Shown one piece after another: positions 30,001-36,000 of a stretch of 64,000 bases of DNA. The stretch's first letter is position 1, and each line of letters opens with the position of its first letter. The stretch is from Spirochaetaceae bacterium (GTDB taxonomy: Bacteria; Spirochaetota; Spirochaetia; DSM-2461). The stretch is taken from positions 1,504,001 through 1,568,000 of the forward strand of contig OZ245056.1 in the NCBI GenBank assembly GCA_965224705.1, in the 5' to 3' direction. Position numbers: made by a program.

Positions 30001-33000
30001 GCACAAGAGGCCCCGAAATCTGAAACGCACCCTGTTAAAAAGGGGAGTATCAGAGTATGCGGCCAATCGAATTATCAACAATAAGGGTATCTGGGCGACT
30101 TCAAGGAGTCCGGCTATGCACAAAGCTTTTCCCAATCGCTATTTCATTGAAGAACTCGGGCAGTTTATCTATTCAGCCTGAGACTGAAAGAAATTGGACA
30201 CATGCATGAGGAGCCGTGTACGGACCCGTACGCACGGTTCTGTGAGAGGACGGCATCCCTGCTTTCGCAGGGTGCCTCCTACTCGATGCGTAGCTGGGCT
30301 ACGTGAGTATTTTGGCAACGCAGCAGCAGGGGAAAAGGGCAAAAATCGAGCCGTGAGGCGTAAGTCCGACAGACTCCATGACCGCTGTCTACGCTTCGCA
30401 TGACACCTCACGATGACACACTTAAAGACTCGCTTCTGCCTGCATGGCCAGTGCCTTAACAGATGGGATTGATGCCCATCAGGTTGTAAAAGAAGTTTCT
30501 GTAACTAAAATCCTATTCTCCAGACTTCCTCTCCTTACTAGCTTTCATAGCGCACTTTGTGATAATTTCTTGTTCGTGGGGAATGTCTATTATGAATCAT
30601 AAAAAACCGCCAGTTCCCTGCCCTTAAAACCTGCCCCCAGAACAAGCAGGCGCTGCGGATGCCACTTTTCCCTTACTCCGTCCAGGTATTTTTCTACTGC
30701 CTGGGTATGGGCTTCCCGGGCTAAATCTTCCAGGGCTTTGCCGTCCTTCACATTCCCATGCTTGAATTCCAGCAGGACGGCTTCCTCGGCCTGGGCCGGA
30801 TTGCTTCCCTTCTTGATCACCACGATGTCCGGACGGCCTTCACCGTATTCCCGGTTGCTCTCAACGGTATACGCCGGGCTCAGGCAGGCCAGAAGACCCA
30901 GTACCAGGCCGTGGTAGAAGTTCTCCCGTCTGGATTCCTCGTCCTCCCACTCCTCTTTACTCCTGGCCGTATCATGGTAGCTGGCCAAGCCGCGAAGAAT
31001 TCGGGACAGTCCCCGTTCTATGTGCCGGGGACTGGCTTCCTGTATGCCGGTGACGAAGTCCGTGAAGTGTTCGTTTATCTTGATATCTTCCTTAAGCCAG
31101 CGGGAAATAACGGTAATCCAGGCGGTTTCCACTTCCAGGTTGGGAATGGCAAGCCGCCATGTTATGAGCCTGTGTTCCTGCTGTCTTTCGGAGGCTTTCA
31201 GGTAGCCGCTGTGGAGTAGAAAGCTCCATACAACATCGGGGTCGCTTTCTATCTGAGGGTAGGGAATGTTGGTCAGCAGGGGTTTGCGGACTTCCTCCTT
31301 CCGCAGGAGTCTTTCTATGGTCATTTTGGCTTCCCGGCGGTCTAACTGGATGACATCCTTGATCAGCCTGTTGTCGCTGGTGCCTATCCAGTGGGGTTTC
31401 AGTCCGGCTCTGGGGCGGCTAAGAAAACTGACGATGCTCCAGGGGTTGTAGATAACGGTGTCCTCGCCGAAGAGGTAGCCGTTGTACCATTCTCTTATGC
31501 CCTCCATCTCGTCTTCCAGTCCAAAGTAGGCGGCCATGGTTTCCACTTCGGATTCTGTGAACCCGAAAGTGTCTTCAATTTCCGGGTCCAGCAATGTACT
31601 GACCCTGGGATTGTTAAAGTCGCTGAATATACTTTCCTGAGCAACTTTCAATATGCCGATCACCACGGCCTGTTTCAGGTGGGGGTTGTCCTTGAAGGTC
31701 TGCACCATGAAGCTGCGGATAAAGGTGATCATCTGGTCGTAGTACTTATCCACATGGGCCGAATGCAGGGGGGTGTCGTACTCGTCGAGAAGGATGTAGG
31801 GTGGTTTGCCGTAGGCCCGGTGGAGCCAGGCGGAAAGGTATTTGATGGACTGGGCATAGTCGCCGTCCGCAGCATTTCTGTTCTGAATTTCCGTATAGTA
31901 TTGTATTTTTGATTCATCAAAAAACTCACTTTCAAGAAGATAGTTATGTCTCTCAAATTCATCTGCGATGACTGACTTCACTAAATCCATACTTTCTTCT
32001 TTGCTTGCACTCTTCACATTCTTGAAGCTCAAATGAATGACCGGATACTCCCCCATGAACTCGGCACAGCGAGGGTGGGAGGCGATTGCACGATCTTCAA
32101 AAAGGTAGGCGTTGGGAGTTGTAACCGATGAGTGAGAATCCTGCTGTTTGCGAATGGGTAGGGGGGCCTCCAGGAAGTGGCGGATCATGCTCAGGTTCAG
32201 GGTTTTCCCGAAGCGCCGGGGACGGGTGATAAGGTGAACCTCGCTGGGGTGGTCAATAAGGTAGCCGATAAGGTGAGTTTTATCGACGAAGTAGCAGTCT
32301 TCATCAATGAATTTCTTAAAATTGGTGATGCCCTGTTCCAGCTTTTTCATGGCGCTTTTCAGCATAGCATGATTTGGCCGCTTTATCTACGCTCGGGCCG
32401 CAGTCGCTCAGGCCGCTGGGCCTGGTCGGAAGCTCCGCTTCCTGCTCGGCCATGCATCCGGGGCCTAAACTTTCTTTTTTTTCGACAAAAAGAAAGTTTA
32501 ACAAAGAAAAATACGACTCAAGGGGGTGTTCTCCCTTGAGAATCCCCCTGCGCTCCGTGAAAAGCGGGTTTTTTGCTCTTTTCAGAAGCTTTGGGGTGGC
32601 TGTGAAGTGTGAAGTGTGGAGTCCAGTACACTAGAAGATTCCAGGGAACACCTTATACTTCACCTGATTCCTATACTCCTGCCAGTATTCACCATATTTC
32701 AGAGCACAGCGTTTTTCATCTCTTCCAGCCCTATCCATGAGAAGTATGAAAAGAAAGATCAGGTAGAACCAGGGCAGCAAGTGCCGGAATCCCGCCGGAA
32801 TCGTCCATGCTGCGGCCAGCATAAGTTCAGGAACATAATGGAAATGCCGCGCCATTCCCCACCAGCCGCTGGCTAACAGTGGGTTTGTATGAGTTTCACT
32901 ATCTGAAGTTGTGTATCGGGCATGGATGATGCGTGGAGTCTTCCCCCAAATCTTCACTTCGGCGCCCTTATCCCGTATCCTCTGCCTTTGTCTGTCCGCA

Positions 33001-36000
33001 TCAAAGTTTATTCCGATACTGACTATCCCCAGTATAACGACAACCGCGGCCGCAAGCGGATTGAGGTAACCTCCATGGTCAACGAGATAAAATGCGGCCA
33101 AACAGTATAGGGAGGGAACCCAGACGAGAACCCCCCAGCAGATATAGTAGCCGAATCGATCATGCATGATGTCGGTGGAGTACAAATAGCCGCGTTCCCA
33201 CACGAAAAACTTGAACAGATACACGACCAATATCGCTACCGAAGCTATCATGGAAGGAGTGACAGCTCCATGGATGTCCCATTGGGAGACGAGGAAACTC
33301 AACGCAATAACCGACCAGCCCATCATGGAAACTCGGCAGTTGATCAATTGCTTCAGGGAAGTTCCGGCCATCATAGGATAGAGTTCAATCCCCTGAAAAA
33401 AATCGAAGAGCAAGCTGCCGCTGTATACGGCGTCGGTGCTGCTGGGGATGCACCTTCCCTTTATGTACAGCAAAATACAAACGCACAGTGCTCCCAGGTT
33501 GAGTGTGATGAGAAGAGAGCCGTACAGGGGGTATAATTTGGCCGGATTCAGTATCCCCAGAGGATAGAAAATGCCGAACAGGAGTCCATGGGTCACCACC
33601 CATGAGAATGGCCCATTATACTTATAGGTCGGTCTCTTTCCGGTGGGAGTGATGGGGCCTTCACCTGTTCTTCCGGGAAGATACCGAAGCAAACCCCACT
33701 GTGCCAGCATCCAGGCCAATATGATAATCACCGCCTTCAAGCTGGGTTTGGGGAATCGCGATAACCATTCTCCCGGTCCGGCGCGGAAGAAGGCGAGAAT
33801 TGAGCCGTCGAAATATGCGGCGGTCATCCACATCATGATTGATAGAAAAGGAGTGCTCAGCATGAGCAATAAAGGTCCCAGCCACCTTCGAAACGGATGA
33901 ATCTCCAGGGTACTTTTTACAGGCCGCGGAGGTAGGGCCGCCCCTTTGGGCAAACCGGAAAGAATAGATTGCCAAGCGGAGGATACATGGGGTTGATTCA
34001 TAACAGACTCCTTTTTTGATAGTTTTCAGTATAGAGAGTGCCGCGAAGCTTGTAGAATCCAGATTATCCGATGCTGTAGTGACCTTGAAAGCAACCTGGA
34101 GGTTGCCACTTTTGCGATTGCAGCAAGCTTCGCGACACTCGATTCAGTATACACCTTTCTCAACAAGCTTGTATCTAAAGGAATTGACGAACCATACCCA
34201 GGATGAGAGTTTTACTGGGAGAATGCTAGTATACTATAAACCTTAATATCACCCATGTTACCCAGGGCAATCGCATCTAAAATCCACTTATGAAAGCCTT
34301 ATTCATGATTCTTAACCGCAGAGGACGCAGAGAGCGCAGAGTGTTCAAGGTAATTATTCACATCACAACGATAACAAAAAGTTGACAAATTCCTCCTATT
34401 GAAGGAAACTCCATTCGTTCCCCCAAGAATTAGTGTTTTTCATTTTTTTGGGATAGAATTAGATGCGATTGCCCTGCCATGTTACCTTTGTTAGCTTTGT
34501 TTTGAGAGATTGAGTTTAACAGAGTTCGGTGCTTTTTGTTTTCTTTGTCTCGGGGCTTTAGATCACCCACACAACAGGGAGCCTAAGGTTTTATTCCCGT
34601 GTGCTTACATCTGATGAAGTAGGATTACTGTATAAGAAATAACGGATGAAATCTGTTCGTGTTTTTCGTGTGGTTCGTGGTTCCTATTGAGATGAGGTTT
34701 TTTTACCACGAAAGGCACGAAAGACACGAAAATTTGGTGGATAGAAGCTGGCTGAATACAGCGGAAATAGAATTAAGTGCCTATAAGCGGCAATGTCTCA
34801 ATCGCCGGATACCAACCATTGAACAACTGGTTCAGGAAACAGAAATGTTAAATTGGGATAGAAATAACTCTGCAAATAAAGTCGATTGGCCGTTTACCGC
34901 CAAGGATGCTCGGATAAAGCTGAAAAGACTTTATCTGCAGGTTTAGGGATTATAAGGTACTAGGAGTCTATCGGGCTTACGCCTCACGGCTTGATTTCTG
35001 CCCTTCTCTCCAGAGCCGACTTCGTTCGTTTCCGCCGCCATCCGCGGCAGCTTTTCCTCGCATCGCTCGGCACTCTCTTCGTTTTTGCCTGCCTGTCGGC
35101 AGACAGGTCGCCCTGCATCAGGAAAAAATCATCAAAAACCGCCTTGAAGTCTCAAAGTCCGACAGACTCCTGGTGCGGCGGATAAGCACTCCGTACTTAT
35201 CTCAAAAGGTAAAAAGGTAAAAAATTTACGTCCTCCGAACGGGGCGAAAGTCGAGGTTGTTGTTGCTATTGCCAGGCGAATTGTTGTTACGATTGGCAGA
35301 CCGCAAGTTCCTGCCGTTGTTGTTCCAGCTGCCGCCGCGATTCACGCGGTTCAACCCGCTTACGAACCGTTTCCTTTTCTTGTTAGTAAAATATGAAATC
35401 AGAAATTCCGTGTCAGAGGATTGACACGATGAAGATGTTATAGATAATGCTCCTGGTTCTTGGCTCTCATAGCCGCATATTATCATTTAACCATGATAAT
35501 GGCCACACCAAATACCCCAAAATCCAAAAAAAATTTCGGTCCGCCTGCGGCGGACAGACCTGCTGGCACCGGGCCTTCGGCCTGGCACCGGCAGGTAAGG
35601 TGCACGGGCGTAAAGCCCGTGCGTTTTTATTAAAGCCGCCTGACGGCGGCTTTAAAGGTGAGCCTTCGGCTCCTCTTCCTCCATGCCGCTAGCGCGGCGG
35701 ATAAGCACTTCGTGCTTATCTCAAAAGGTAAAAAAACAAAATTTACGTCCTCCGAACGGGGCGGAAACCTTGGTTGACGATGCTAAGGCTAGGCGAATTG
35801 TGGCCCCGATCCGCCGACCGGAGGTAACGGGCATCGAAGTACCAACTACCGCCACGGCCCACACGGCGCGACCCGCTAGACGGCCCACTTGGGTCTCTCT
35901 GACTCCCGCGTGAATAATCCCCATACCAATCCCAGCACCATTCCCAGACATTCCCATGCATATCATACAAACCATTCGCATTCGGAGAAAAACTTCCCAC

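What a model noticed while it worked through the whole genome (the two positions that open the first line are those of the whole stretch)
32631..34001. Eukaryote-type sterol-modifying enzymes (DHCR7-like, DET2-like) in a genome without squalene or sterol synthesis
g01344 (456 aa, ERG4/ERG24 family) is a close homologue of sterol delta-7 reductases (7-dehydrocholesterol reductase) and g00255 (292188-292784) of steroid 5-alpha-reductase DET2, next to a fatty-acid/ceramide 2-hydroxylase homologue g00256. The genome has the mevalonate pathway but no squalene/phytoene synthase and no squalene-hopene or oxidosqualene cyclase, so these enzymes cannot act on self-made sterols. I propose that this host-associated spirochaete remodels sterols taken up from its host or from dietary algae, as other spirochaetes are known to incorporate host sterols (recalled).
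Evidence so far: swissprot.tsv: g01344 44.6% identical over 417 aa to Arabidopsis DWF5 (4e-123), 37% to rat and bovine DHCR7; g00255 44.9% over 176 aa to Arabidopsis DET2 (1e-44); g00256 35% to Arabidopsis FAH1. Homologue search: 1178 proteins at E<=1e-40, the best 55-63% identical, those with a name called 7-dehydrocholesterol reductase by their sources, several from Myxococcota. relatives.tsv: ERG4_ERG24 in 2 of 13 genomes of the genus, 5 of 37 of the order, 79 of 2011 of the phylum (floors). Six-frame searches of this genome: SQHop_cyclase_C (PF13243) 0 matches, SQS_PSY (PF00494) 0 matches, while controls rang; keyword scan of the tables finds no squalene, hopanoid or carotenoid genes. Mevalonate pathway [...]
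(Added by a program. Inside this text positions count along the whole contig: contig position 1,504,001 is position 1 of the stretch shown here. "Call 12" and the like, gene names such as g00115 and contig names such as C1 are that model's own, and its searches are not shown. The text may have been shortened before it was handed on; [...] marks where a part breaks off. The agent that wrote the report below was given it as the finding of a first reader that could run no searches.)

Follow-up and report, generated by a model that had tools for sequence, protein, structure and literature searches.

The report
Orphan sterol reductase in mollusc spirochaete
A spirochaete found in mollusc samples recently picked up an intact bacterial-lineage copy of the enzyme that finishes cholesterol synthesis although it cannot make sterols itself, so it probably edits sterols taken from its surroundings, a situation already known from Legionella, Coxiella and chlamydia-like bacteria.

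Summary
Window 32631-34001 (-) is an intact 456-aa ERG4/ERG24 reductase of the DHCR7 (sterol delta-7) clade. The closed 3.0-Mb genome has no squalene synthase, squalene epoxidase, triterpene cyclase or P450.

- The gene's nearest kin are bacterial: two other Spirochaetota at 60%, then Myxococcota. They are not eukaryotic.
- It is a lineage-specific gain. I found it in 1 of 38 genomes of the order, and it is missing from the closest congener (about 92% nucleotide identity in the flanks). It sits at the edge of a transposase/NACHT/repeat-rich patch.
- The DET2-like gene is a true SRD5A type, but it is near-core in the genus and vertically inherited. Its partner is a Scs7/FA2H-type fatty-acid hydroxylase. 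The two loci do not form one acquired "sterol kit".
- The DHCR7-like gene keeps 100 of 104 family-conserved columns. Strain variants are 27 synonymous to 8 non-synonymous. Contigs from RNA libraries labelled mollusc metagenome cover parts of it.

Action on exogenous sterols is the best reading but is untested. Orphan DHCR7 genes were described in 2009, and this scan has noted similar orphans on other DNA. This is a new member of a known kind.

Side finding: the closest relative's genome carries SQS, squalene epoxidase and a lanosterol-synthase-type cyclase.

The parts
32631..34001 (-). Intact 456-aa ERG4/ERG24 family, DHCR7-clade sterol reductase gene (P0001)
34028..34056 (-). Sigma-70-like promoter match (TCTACA-17-TATACT), 27 nt upstream of the ATG. 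This is a consensus match only.
   Evidence: 9 of 12 positions; 8 sites found in the region against 4.0 expected
32517..32540 (-). Terminator-like hairpin (8 pairs) plus T-run about 90 nt after the stop codon. It suggests a monocistronic unit.
30329..30377 (.). Left arm of a 49-nt inverted repeat (88% complementary). It is part of a short element present in many copies in the closest congener.
34963..35011 (.). Right arm of the same inverted repeat. The two arms bracket 4.6 kb that holds the AAA-ATPase/PDDEXK gene and the reductase gene.
30593..32365 (-). AAA-ATPase_like + PDDEXK_9 gene directly downstream. It belongs to a multicopy family: three tandem copies at 84-88% nucleotide identity in the congener G037, plus weaker ones.
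22837..30178 (.). Mobile/defence patch to the left of the gene: two DDE transposases (22837-24396 +, 25073-26377 -), a NACHT NTPase (27129-29444 -) and a group II intron maturase fragment (29666-30178 +).
32390..34955 (.). Stretch holding the reductase gene that has no DNA match in the closest congener G037. Synteny with G037 (about 92% identity) runs from window 58386 to 37803 and breaks there.

Best explanation
The gene encodes a working, membrane-embedded, NADPH-dependent sterol double-bond reductase of the DHCR7 (delta-7) clade. This lineage of a mollusc-associated spirochaete gained it by horizontal transfer from the bacterial pool of such genes; its nearest kin are other Spirochaetota, then Myxococcota.

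The cell cannot make squalene, oxidosqualene or a sterol ring system. The enzyme therefore most likely reduces sterols taken up from outside, such as delta5,7- or delta7-sterols from the host or its algal diet, giving delta5-type or saturated-ring sterols for the bacterium's own membrane.

Shown: gene integrity, fold, clade membership, absence of the upstream pathway, recent gain, and purifying selection among strains.

Inferred: NADPH use, the delta-7 position, that the substrate is a sterol, that it is exogenous, and that the product is used by the cell.

The DET2-like SRD5A gene elsewhere in the genome is an older, vertically inherited gene of the genus. It may also act on host steroids, as reported for Treponema denticola, but it is not part of the same acquisition.
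For: Family and fold:
- Pfam 220 bits.
- MaSR1 2e-63.
- AF2 model against 4quv: TM 0.90, rmsd 3.0.

Subfamily:
- A 60-row clade with 100% support holds named eukaryotic DHCR7 proteins together with this protein. The delta14-type sequences fall outside it.
- The same 34-row bacterial clade holds the Enhygromyxa salina homologue. E. salina makes cholesterol (PMC10202945, passages read). A supplementary figure heading there names a 7-dehydrocholesterol reductase.

Integrity:
- The protein keeps 100 of 104 columns that are at least 90% conserved among 234 other family members.
- The C-terminal ...DRAGRDEKRCALKYG... block aligns with MaSR1.

Selection:
- 35 strain variants listed inside the ORF are 27 synonymous and 8 non-synonymous, with codon positions 7/2/26.

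No upstream pathway:
- See, on a one-contig genome.

Recent gain:
- 0 of 37 other genomes of the order carry this type.
- In an even sample of the phylum, the only other high-identity copy is in a different class (60%).
- There is no DNA match in the about-92%-identical congener G037.
- The gene lies among transposases, repeats and defence-like genes.

Habitat:
- 12 runs from 3 studies hold the stretch. Eight are labelled mollusc metagenome and four carry a coded organism name. Contigs from 3 RNA libraries of one study cover parts of the ORF at 95-99% identity or more.

Substrate supply:
- Bivalves are sterol auxotrophs that rework dietary algal sterols (PMC5421315, passages).
- Spirochaetes take up host cholesterol (PMC3542181, abstract in search listing).

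Precedent:
- PMC2667531 (abstract).
Against: - No substrate, product or activity was measured.
- No sterol uptake, binding or glycosylation gene could be tied to the reductase. It stands alone with its own predicted promoter and terminator.
- Neighbourhoods of the relatives are housekeeping genes with no shared synteny.
- Orphan DHCR7-like genes also occur in free-living bacteria. 29 of 50 DHCR7-like-bearing genomes searched had no cyclase, including two cultured Actinomadura isolates. Most of the rest are MAGs of unknown completeness. The pattern therefore does not by itself point to host sterols, and a non-sterol substrate cannot be excluded.
- The closest relative's genome (G038) has SQS, SE and OSC but no P450. 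Even there, the enzyme's exact substrate is unclear.
- The protein deviates at 4 conserved columns: P310G, Y333F, G347A, G368S. At codon 368, variant contigs in all four laid runs read the consensus G.
- Contigs from RNA libraries do not prove transcription (tool warning).
- GC3 is 58.6% against 49.6 +/- 8.5 for long ORFs of the genome, which is only mildly atypical. Composition gives no independent support for foreign origin.
Confidence: 0.55

Rival explanations
1. The enzyme is active but its natural substrate is not a sterol. It could be another polycyclic or isoprenoid lipid made by the cell from its mevalonate pathway, or an environmental lipid. The 'sterol' label would then be only a family name.
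For: - 29 of 50 genomes with a DHCR7-like gene showed no triterpene cyclase, including cultured free-living Actinomadura.
- HMG-CoA reductase is present in 14 of 14 genomes of the genus, so isoprenoid precursors are available.
- No bacterial member of this subclade has a measured activity in anything I read.
Against: - By my recollection, every characterised member of ERG4/ERG24 reduces a sterol C=C bond.
- The protein is 43% identical to a named eukaryotic DHCR7 and keeps 100 of 104 conserved columns. That argues for an unchanged pocket.
- The in-clade E. salina homologue sits in a demonstrated cholesterol producer (PMC10202945).
- Absence from 37 of 37 relatives of the order argues against a role on a core endogenous lipid.
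Confidence: 0.2
2. The gene is a recent horizontally transferred passenger with little or no present role. It would be carried along in a mobile, repeat-flanked patch and not yet decayed.
For: - It lies between many-copy repeats and next to a multicopy AAA-ATPase/PDDEXK gene, transposases and an intron remnant.
- It is absent from the closest congener.
- No functionally linked neighbour was found.
- It has four deviations at conserved columns.
Against: - Strain variants are strongly biased to third codon positions: 26 of 35, with 27 synonymous to 8 non-synonymous.
- The frame is intact, and near-identical copies are held by runs of 3 studies.
- RNA-library contigs cover parts of the ORF.
- The nearest known homologue is only 63% identical. 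The gene has therefore either been resident for some time or come from an unsampled donor.
Confidence: 0.17
3. The bacterium makes sterols de novo by enzymes that the searches missed, and the reductase is the last step of its own pathway, as in its closest relative.
For: - The closest relative's genome (G038) has SQS, squalene epoxidase and an OSC.
- The genome is estimated at 95.2% complete by markers.
Against: - The assembly is one 3.0-Mb contig.
- SQS_PSY and SE gave 0 matches at E<=1, the cyclase only a 12.6-bit fragment, and P450 0 matches. The same searches rang in control genomes and in G038.
Confidence: 0.03

Closest known systems
Sterol delta-7 reductase genes of Legionella drancourtii, Protochlamydia amoebophila and Coxiella burnetii (Moliner et al. 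2009, PMC2667531, abstract read)
   Same: - A DHCR7-type gene sits alone in a host-associated bacterium.
- It is absent from close relatives and was acquired horizontally.
- It was proposed to act on host sterols ('host cholesterol parasitism').
- Coxiellaceae and Legionellaceae homologues fall in the same 60-row DHCR7 clade, and their genomes lack a cyclase.
   Different: - They sit in a different subclade. The spirochaete protein groups with Myxococcota-type sequences, the Legionellales ones with Bacteroidota and eukaryote-near sequences.
- The host here is a mollusc, and an intracellular lifestyle is not indicated.
- That paper inferred a plant origin, whereas here the nearest kin are bacteria.
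Eukaryotic DHCR7 / Arabidopsis DWF5 (delta5,7-sterol delta7-reductase)
   Same: - Same family and clade.
- 43% identity to a named protist DHCR7.
- Same length class and the same conserved blocks.
   Different: - In eukaryotes the enzyme works within a full sterol pathway in the ER.
- Here it has no upstream pathway and sits in a bacterial inner membrane.
- Its regiospecificity is untested.
MaSR1, delta14-sterol reductase of Methylomicrobium alcaliphilum (PDB 4QUV)
   Same: - Same fold: TM 0.90 to the AF2 model.
- 32% identity.
- Shared C-terminal cofactor-binding half.
   Different: - It belongs to a different subfamily (delta14) and lies outside the DHCR7 clade.
- Two congeners of this spirochaete carry the MaSR1 type (402 bits), but this genome does not.
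DHCR7 homologue of Enhygromyxa salina, a bacterial de novo cholesterol producer (Lee et al. 2023, PMC10202945; passages and one supplementary hit read)
   Same: - Same 34-row bacterial subclade.
- 47-48% identity.
   Different: E. salina has OSC and most of the pathway (paper). This genome has none of it.
Steroid 5-alpha-reductases PbSRD5A (7C83), human SRD5A2 (7BW1) and the Treponema denticola activity. These are the comparators for the DET2-like gene.
   Same: - 6e-62 to PbSRD5A and 4e-35 to SRD5A2, against 1e-11 to a TECR-type enzyme.
- The equivalents of catalytic E57 and Y91 are conserved (PMC7591894 passages).
- A spirochaete with steroid 5-alpha-reductase activity is on record (PMC11301207 passages citing Clark & Soory 2007).
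   Different: - Here the gene is paired with an Scs7/FA2H-like hydroxylase, and only in this species and its sister species.
- The substrate is untested.
- No strong 3-beta-HSD is present to supply 3-oxo-delta4 steroids: the best match in G000 is 93 bits and generic.

Membership tests
ERG4/ERG24 sterol reductase family (PF01222) | Profile match above the curated cut-off over most of the domain | tested here: met
   220.4 bits against a cut-off of 27; profile positions 66-432 of 432
ERG4/ERG24 sterol reductase family (PF01222) | Multi-helix integral-membrane fold of MaSR1 | tested here: met
   AF2 pLDDT 89.3, pTM 0.87. Foldseek against 4quv_A: E 1.4e-24, TM 0.78 (query) / 0.90 (target), rmsd 3.0.
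ERG4/ERG24 sterol reductase family (PF01222) | Conserved C-terminal block ...R-D-x3-C-x2-K-Y-G... (its name as 'sterol reductase signature 2' is recalled, not taken from a call) | tested here: met
   DRAGRDEKRCALKYGEYW in the translation aligns with HREKRDDAMCLAKYGEDW of MaSR1. D423, R424, R427, D428, C432, K435, Y436 and G437 are invariant in the 20-sequence alignment.
ERG4/ERG24 sterol reductase family (PF01222) | NADPH-dependent reduction of a sterol C=C bond | not testable with these tools
   Needs an enzyme assay
DHCR7 / DWF5 subfamily (delta-7 reductase) | Falls in the clade of named DHCR7 proteins, apart from delta14 and other subfamilies | tested here: met
   IQ-TREE quick, LG+G4, 73 rows. 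The 60-row clade has SH-aLRT 100 and holds the Hondaea, Thraustotheca, oomycete and Ectocarpus proteins. The delta14-type L085/L086 fall outside.
DHCR7 / DWF5 subfamily (delta-7 reductase) | Keeps the residues conserved across the subfamily | tested here: met
   100 of 104 columns that are at least 90% conserved among 234 other members. The deviations are P310G, Y333F, G347A and G368S.
DHCR7 / DWF5 subfamily (delta-7 reductase) | Regiospecific reduction at C-7 of delta5,7-sterols | not testable with these tools
   Inferred from clade membership only
DHCR7 / DWF5 subfamily (delta-7 reductase) | Operates downstream of a sterol pathway in the same genome | tested here: not met
   SQS 0, SE 0, cyclase sub-threshold only, P450 0. 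This is what makes the gene an 'orphan'.
Orphan, horizontally acquired sterol reductases of host-associated bacteria (Legionella / Protochlamydia / Coxiella type) | Absent from close relatives; foreign phylogenetic position | tested here: met
   This type is in 1 of 38 genomes of the order. There is no DNA match in the about-92%-identical congener. Sister sequences lie in another class of the phylum and in Myxococcota.
Orphan, horizontally acquired sterol reductases of host-associated bacteria (Legionella / Protochlamydia / Coxiella type) | Lives with a sterol-containing eukaryotic host | tested here: inconclusive
   Runs that hold the stretch are labelled mollusc metagenome (8 runs, 2 studies) or carry a coded organism name (4 runs, 1 study). 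Labels only; the location in the host is unknown.
Orphan, horizontally acquired sterol reductases of host-associated bacteria (Legionella / Protochlamydia / Coxiella type) | Acts on host-derived sterol | not testable with these tools
   Not shown for the delta-7 type in any bacterium, as far as I read (PMC2667531 abstract: 'role ... as yet unknown').
SRD5A1/2-DET2 steroid 5-alpha-reductases (for the second gene, contig 292188-292950) | Profile match; closer to SRD5A than to TECR or polyprenol-reductase types; catalytic Glu and Tyr present | tested here: met
   Steroid_dh 2.7e-48. PbSRD5A 6e-62, SRD5A2 4e-35, TECR-like 1e-11. The Glu and Tyr align with E57 and Y91 of SRD5A2 (PMC7591894). The polyprenol-reductase (SRD5A3) type was not compared directly.

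The most novel reading that the evidence does not exclude
Sterol chemistry may be a recurrent, horizontally traded trait inside Spirochaetota.
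- One lineage (G038) seems to have the full entry into sterol synthesis (SQS, squalene epoxidase, lanosterol-synthase-type OSC) together with this DHCR7 type.
- The mollusc-associated species has kept or borrowed only the final tailoring enzyme.
- With it, the species may convert the delta5,7/delta7 sterols that pass through a sterol-auxotrophic, alga-feeding mollusc into cholesterol-type sterols, for itself and possibly to the host's benefit.
- That would make it a bacterial partner in the host's sterol bioconversion, not a mere consumer.
Probability: 0.2. Interest if true: 0.7.

Novelty: new member of a known kind. Interest (0 to 1): 0.42.

Why it matters
If the enzyme reduces exogenous sterols, it extends 'sterol editing without sterol synthesis' to new ground. 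So far that is known from intracellular Legionellales and chlamydiae. The new case would be an extracellular, invertebrate-associated spirochaete, in a host group (molluscs) that itself depends on reworking dietary sterols.

It also offers a clean natural experiment. Two about-92%-identical closed genomes differ by this gene.

The related observation may matter more for the debate on the bacterial distribution and origin of sterol synthesis. A Spirochaetota chromosome carries SQS, squalene epoxidase and a lanosterol-synthase-type cyclase. Two full-text searches found no paper reporting sterol synthesis in this phylum. The one relevant paper places Spirochaetota cyclases only in an 'SHC-like' clade of unknown function (PMC12324236, passage).

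Tried and rejected
1. Synteny. No shared gene order links the window to the loci of the closest homologues L004, L005, L074, L114 and L115. The neighbours are housekeeping genes. A GT2 gene (L004) and a GT4 gene (L005) lie nearby, but they are different families and I did not pursue them.
2. Base composition as evidence of transfer. The gene is 50.8% GC against 47.1% for the genome. GC3 is about 1 SD above the mean. This is not decisive.
3. 3Beta_HSD as a marker for steroid handling. The family rings in 14 of 14 control genomes, and G000 has only generic matches. It is uninformative for G000.
4. The idea that FA_hydroxylase (g00256) is a sterol desaturase or methyl-oxidase. Rejected: it is Scs7/FA2H-like and has no tblastn match at E<=1e-3 to the FA_hydroxylase loci of G038, G040 and G030.
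5. The idea that the congeners' ERG4_ERG24 hits are orthologues. Rejected: they are 30% identical and MaSR1-type.
6. R210M in the 'NPR'-like motif as a sign of decay. Rejected: that column is variable in the subfamily (R in 175 of 235, T in 31, others).
7. Transcription. Only assembled contigs of RNA libraries were available. They cannot show strand, ends or level, and parts of the ORF without cover mean nothing.
8. One call failed on wrong coordinates (repeated correctly). One exceeded a 50-locus limit (repeated with 50 loci).
9. The Lee et al. 2023 main text does not name the E. salina DHCR7 homologue. Only a supplementary figure heading does. I did not read its Supplementary Table 2 with accession numbers, so equating L059/L063 with their gene is an inference.

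Full report
**1. The observation**

The frame at window 32631-34001 on the minus strand is open from an ATG for 456 codons.
- It matches Pfam ERG4_ERG24 at 220 bits, against a cut-off of 27.
- Its best solved relative is the bacterial delta14-sterol reductase MaSR1 (4quv, 2e-63 over residues 44-456).
- An AlphaFold2 model built on a 20-sequence alignment has mean pLDDT 89.3. It superposes on 4quv with a TM-score of 0.90 normalised to the target.
- It is the only ERG4/ERG24 gene in the genome.

There are 1179 proteins at E<=1e-3 among 7999 scored candidates, the best 63% identical. The named ones are called 7-dehydrocholesterol reductase, and several come from Myxococcota.

**2. Absence of sterol synthesis**

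The genome is a single contig of 3,005,944 bp, 95.2% complete by marker genes. Six-frame family searches gave:
- No SQS_PSY match at E<=1, while 9 of 14 control genomes rang.
- Only a 12.6-bit sub-threshold fragment for the cyclase C-domain.
- No squalene epoxidase match at E<=1.
- No cytochrome P450.

HMG-CoA reductase is present here and in all 14 of 14 genomes of the genus. The statement "mevalonate pathway but no squalene or sterol ring formation" therefore stands as far as these searches go.

**3. What kind of reductase it is**

I built a maximum-likelihood tree (IQ-TREE quick search, LG+G4, 73 rows). The rows were 43 of the 84 locus-derived proteins, 9 eukaryotic proteins, 2 Bacteroidota proteins and 18 unnamed representatives.
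- The protein sits inside a 60-row clade (SH-aLRT 100). That clade contains named eukaryotic DHCR7 proteins: Hondaea (identified), Thraustotheca, oomycetes and brown or golden algae.
- The MaSR1-like delta14 type and a short 360-aa type lie outside the clade.
- Within the clade the protein belongs to a 34-row bacterial group (support 95), mostly Myxococcota. This group includes Enhygromyxa salina.
- At the tip it forms a 100%-supported group of five with two other Spirochaetota (L004 and L005, both 60% identical) and two unnamed metagenome proteins (63% and 59%).

The family assignment "DHCR7-like" is therefore right. "Eukaryote-type" is misleading, because the immediate relatives are bacterial.

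E. salina makes cholesterol and has homologues of nearly every eukaryotic step (PMC10202945, passages read). A supplementary figure heading there names a 7-dehydrocholesterol reductase. This is the best available support for delta-7 activity in the bacterial subclade, and it remains an inference.

**4. Integrity and selection**

- Against 234 other members of the subfamily, the protein keeps 100 of the 104 columns that are at least 90% conserved. Comparable proteins deviate at 0-2 columns, and the Hondaea enzyme at 14.
- The Arg-to-Met change in the 'NPR'-like motif falls in a column that is variable in this subfamily.
- Public runs that hold the stretch come from 3 studies. Two are labelled mollusc metagenome and one carries a coded organism name.
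- I laid contigs of three RNA libraries and one probable DNA library (recorded as 'DNA?') on the gene. They gave 35 listed variant positions inside the ORF. Of these, 27 are synonymous and 8 are not, and 26 fall on third codon positions.
- That is the signature of a gene under purifying selection in a natural population.
- RNA-library contigs cover parts of the ORF, for example 702, 495, 428 and 391 nt pieces. The tool warns that contigs cannot prove transcription.

**5. How the gene got there**

- In the order, 8 of 38 genomes match PF01222 at E<=1e-3, and 6 of these are over the cut-off. None of the others carries this type.
  - The two congeners are 30% identical to this protein and MaSR1-like (402 bits to 4quv).
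  - A second genus has a 360-aa type at 27-30% identity.
- In an even sample of 401 genomes of the phylum, 15 match at E<=1e-10.
  - One, from a different class, is 60% identical.
  - Two, from another family, are 44-46% identical.
  - No listed genome of the same class outside the order matched (20 same-class rows shown; the remaining 366 non-matching genomes were not listed).
- The closest congener, G037, is a closed 2.5-Mb genome whose MptE-like neighbour protein is 91% identical.
  - It is collinear with the window from 58386 down to 37803 at about 92% nucleotide identity, and synteny stops there.
  - A DNA search of all of G037 with window 18001-37800 found nothing for 32390-34955.
- Around the gene lie:
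  - two DDE transposases, a NACHT NTPase, a group II intron maturase fragment and a multicopy AAA-ATPase/PDDEXK gene;
  - many-copy short repeats, two of which form 49-nt inverted arms bracketing the AAA gene and the reductase.
- Composition is only mildly atypical.
- The simplest history is gain in this lineage after its split from G037, from an unsampled donor.

**6. The second locus**

The DET2-like frame (253 aa from a TTG; contig 292191-292950) is a true SRD5A-type enzyme.
- It scores 6e-62 to PbSRD5A and 4e-35 to human SRD5A2, against 1e-11 to a TECR-type enzyme.
- It conserves the Glu and Tyr that align with catalytic E57 and Y91 of SRD5A2 (PMC7591894, passages).
- A spirochaete, Treponema denticola, has been reported to have steroid 5-alpha-reductase activity (PMC11301207, passages citing Clark & Soory 2007).

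However, this gene is old in the group.
- The strong type (at least 134 bits) is in 10 of 14 genomes of the genus and 15 of 38 of the order.
- It is 62-64% identical in three congeners.
- The whole FAH-SRD5A-Omp85-Ste24 locus is conserved at 87-93% amino-acid identity in G037. G037 has no ERG4/ERG24 gene.

The adjacent hydroxylase is Scs7/FA2H-like (8e-21 to 4zr1). That is a fatty-acyl 2-hydroxylase type. G000 has no strong 3-beta-HSD.

The two loci should therefore not be read as one sterol-remodelling toolkit. The SRD5A gene may act on steroids, but its pairing with a fatty-acid hydroxylase leaves its substrate open.

**7. The most informative relative**

The genome holding the 60%-identical homologue L004 is a 2.1-Mb Spirochaetota chromosome (G038 in these searches). 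It carries:
- a squalene synthase;
- a squalene epoxidase (207 bits to PF08491; 1.4e-62 to human squalene monooxygenase);
- directly next to it, a 651-aa cyclase that matches human lanosterol synthase at 6e-150, against 4e-38 for squalene-hopene cyclase.

This cyclase sits immediately upstream of ftsQ-ftsA-ftsZ and fliD. G038 has no P450.

In that lineage, then, the DHCR7 type accompanies an apparent de novo sterol entry pathway. In this genome it stands alone. The genomes of L005 and L074 also lack cyclase and SQS. The two DHCR7-like-bearing genomes of another spirochaete family (G268, G386) lack a full-length cyclase.

**8. How special an orphan is**

I searched 50 genomes that carry a DHCR7-like gene. 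They are those behind 50 of the 80 loci: L004-L035 plus 18 chosen for taxonomic spread.
- 21 have a triterpene cyclase at E<=1e-20 and 29 do not.
- Three of the 21 are genomes flagged unpublished. Without them the count is 18 of 47.
- The 29 without a cyclase include both Coxiellaceae, the Legionellaceae MAG, the two other spirochaetes and two cultured Actinomadura.
- Most are MAGs of unknown completeness, so the figure is soft.
- Even so, orphan DHCR7-like genes appear common and are not restricted to host-associated bacteria.

Orphan delta-7 reductases were described in 2009 for Legionella drancourtii, Protochlamydia and Coxiella, with the same speculation about host cholesterol (PMC2667531, abstract). 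Earlier notes of this scan report similar stand-alone sterol reductases in a Binatia bacterium and in sponge symbionts.

**9. Mechanism and verdict**

The best-supported reading (confidence about 0.55) is an active NADPH-dependent sterol C=C reductase, probably delta-7. It would work on sterols that the cell takes from its surroundings.
- Molluscs are a plausible source. Bivalves are sterol auxotrophs that rework dietary algal sterols (PMC5421315, passages).
- Spirochaetes such as Borrelia take up host cholesterol (PMC3542181, abstract in the search listing).

Rivals are a non-sterol substrate (0.2), a passenger gene with no present role (0.17) and cryptic de novo synthesis (0.03).

Nothing here demonstrates substrate, uptake or benefit.

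The finding is real and tidy, but it is a new member of a known kind. Its main added value is threefold: the recent, datable gain next to a sister genome that lacks it; the population-level signal of selection; and the pointer to a probable sterol-pathway-bearing spirochaete.

Noticed in passing
L096 9672-10679 and 18352-19767; L097 54-2006 (G038:C1:917.7-930 kb): A 2.1-Mb Spirochaetota chromosome carries three early sterol genes: squalene synthase, squalene epoxidase (1.4e-62 to human SQLE) and an adjacent 651-aa cyclase. The cyclase matches human lanosterol synthase at 6e-150, against 4e-38 for SHC, and lies beside ftsQAZ and fliD. The genome also has the DHCR7-like gene but no P450. It may be a sterol-making spirochaete. 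Two full-text searches found no paper reporting sterol synthesis in Spirochaetota.
   Followed up: partly
L085 (G026:C170), L086 (G030:C10), L094 (G030:C41), L128-L130: Other species of the same genus carry different sterol-type genes. Two genomes have a MaSR1-like delta14-reductase (402 bits to 4quv). G026, G030 and G032 have strong 3-beta-HSD-type genes (190-220 bits). G030 has an SQS on a 3.4-kb contig. No cyclase was found in G026 or G030. These are fragmented MAGs, so binning errors are not excluded.
   Followed up: partly
L122-L125 and the table: In another family of the phylum (f41), 12 of 61 genomes have a triterpene cyclase domain over the cut-off, about ten of them full-length. Several of those genomes also have ERG4/ERG24 paralogues at 30-36% identity. 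I did not test whether these cyclases are SHC, 'SHC-like' or OSC.
   Followed up: no
window 35170-35360 and 35689-35877: A roughly 190-nt direct repeat (72-87% identity, spacing 517-519) duplicates the 3' end and terminator of the caspase + FGE-sulfatase gene. It leaves an 86-aa FGE fragment ORF at 35229-35486. This is a scar of rearrangement beside the reductase gene.
   Followed up: no
window 32381-32542 and 34244-34486; also 30288-30388 and 34956-35175: Short elements flank the reductase gene on both sides. They reach depths of hundreds to a thousand in a DNA run, against about 7 for the gene, and have dozens of copies in the congener G037. This looks like a MITE/REP-like repeat family. Joints skipping 47-54 nt at 34288-34337 show length variants.
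   Followed up: no
window 35746-37572 (-) and 9584-11572 (-): The window holds a caspase (Peptidase_C14) + FGE-sulfatase fusion protein and a second caspase-domain protein. The fusion gene has many partial relatives in G037 at 69-81% nucleotide identity, so it belongs to an expanded family.
   Followed up: no
L084 10540-11796 (-) (contig 294.5-295.8 kb): A Ste24-type CAAX prenyl protease (Peptidase_M48_N + M48) lies just upstream of the FA2H-like/SRD5A pair, and an Omp85/POTRA protein lies downstream. The whole arrangement is conserved in the sister genome G037.
   Followed up: partly
G498 (L058) and G503 (L066): Two cultured Actinomadura genomes (about 10 Mb) carry a DHCR7-like gene (48-49% identical) but have no triterpene cyclase at E<=1e-20. 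These are orphan sterol reductases in free-living actinomycetes.
   Followed up: no
L004 11497-12618; L005 5931-7112; L115 3470-4084: Three neighbours of DHCR7-like genes caught my eye: a GT2 glycosyltransferase directly downstream in G038, a GT4 glycosyltransferase two genes downstream in the other close spirochaete, and a lipocalin-like gene two genes away in G268. A link to sterol glycosides or sterol binding is speculation.
   Followed up: no
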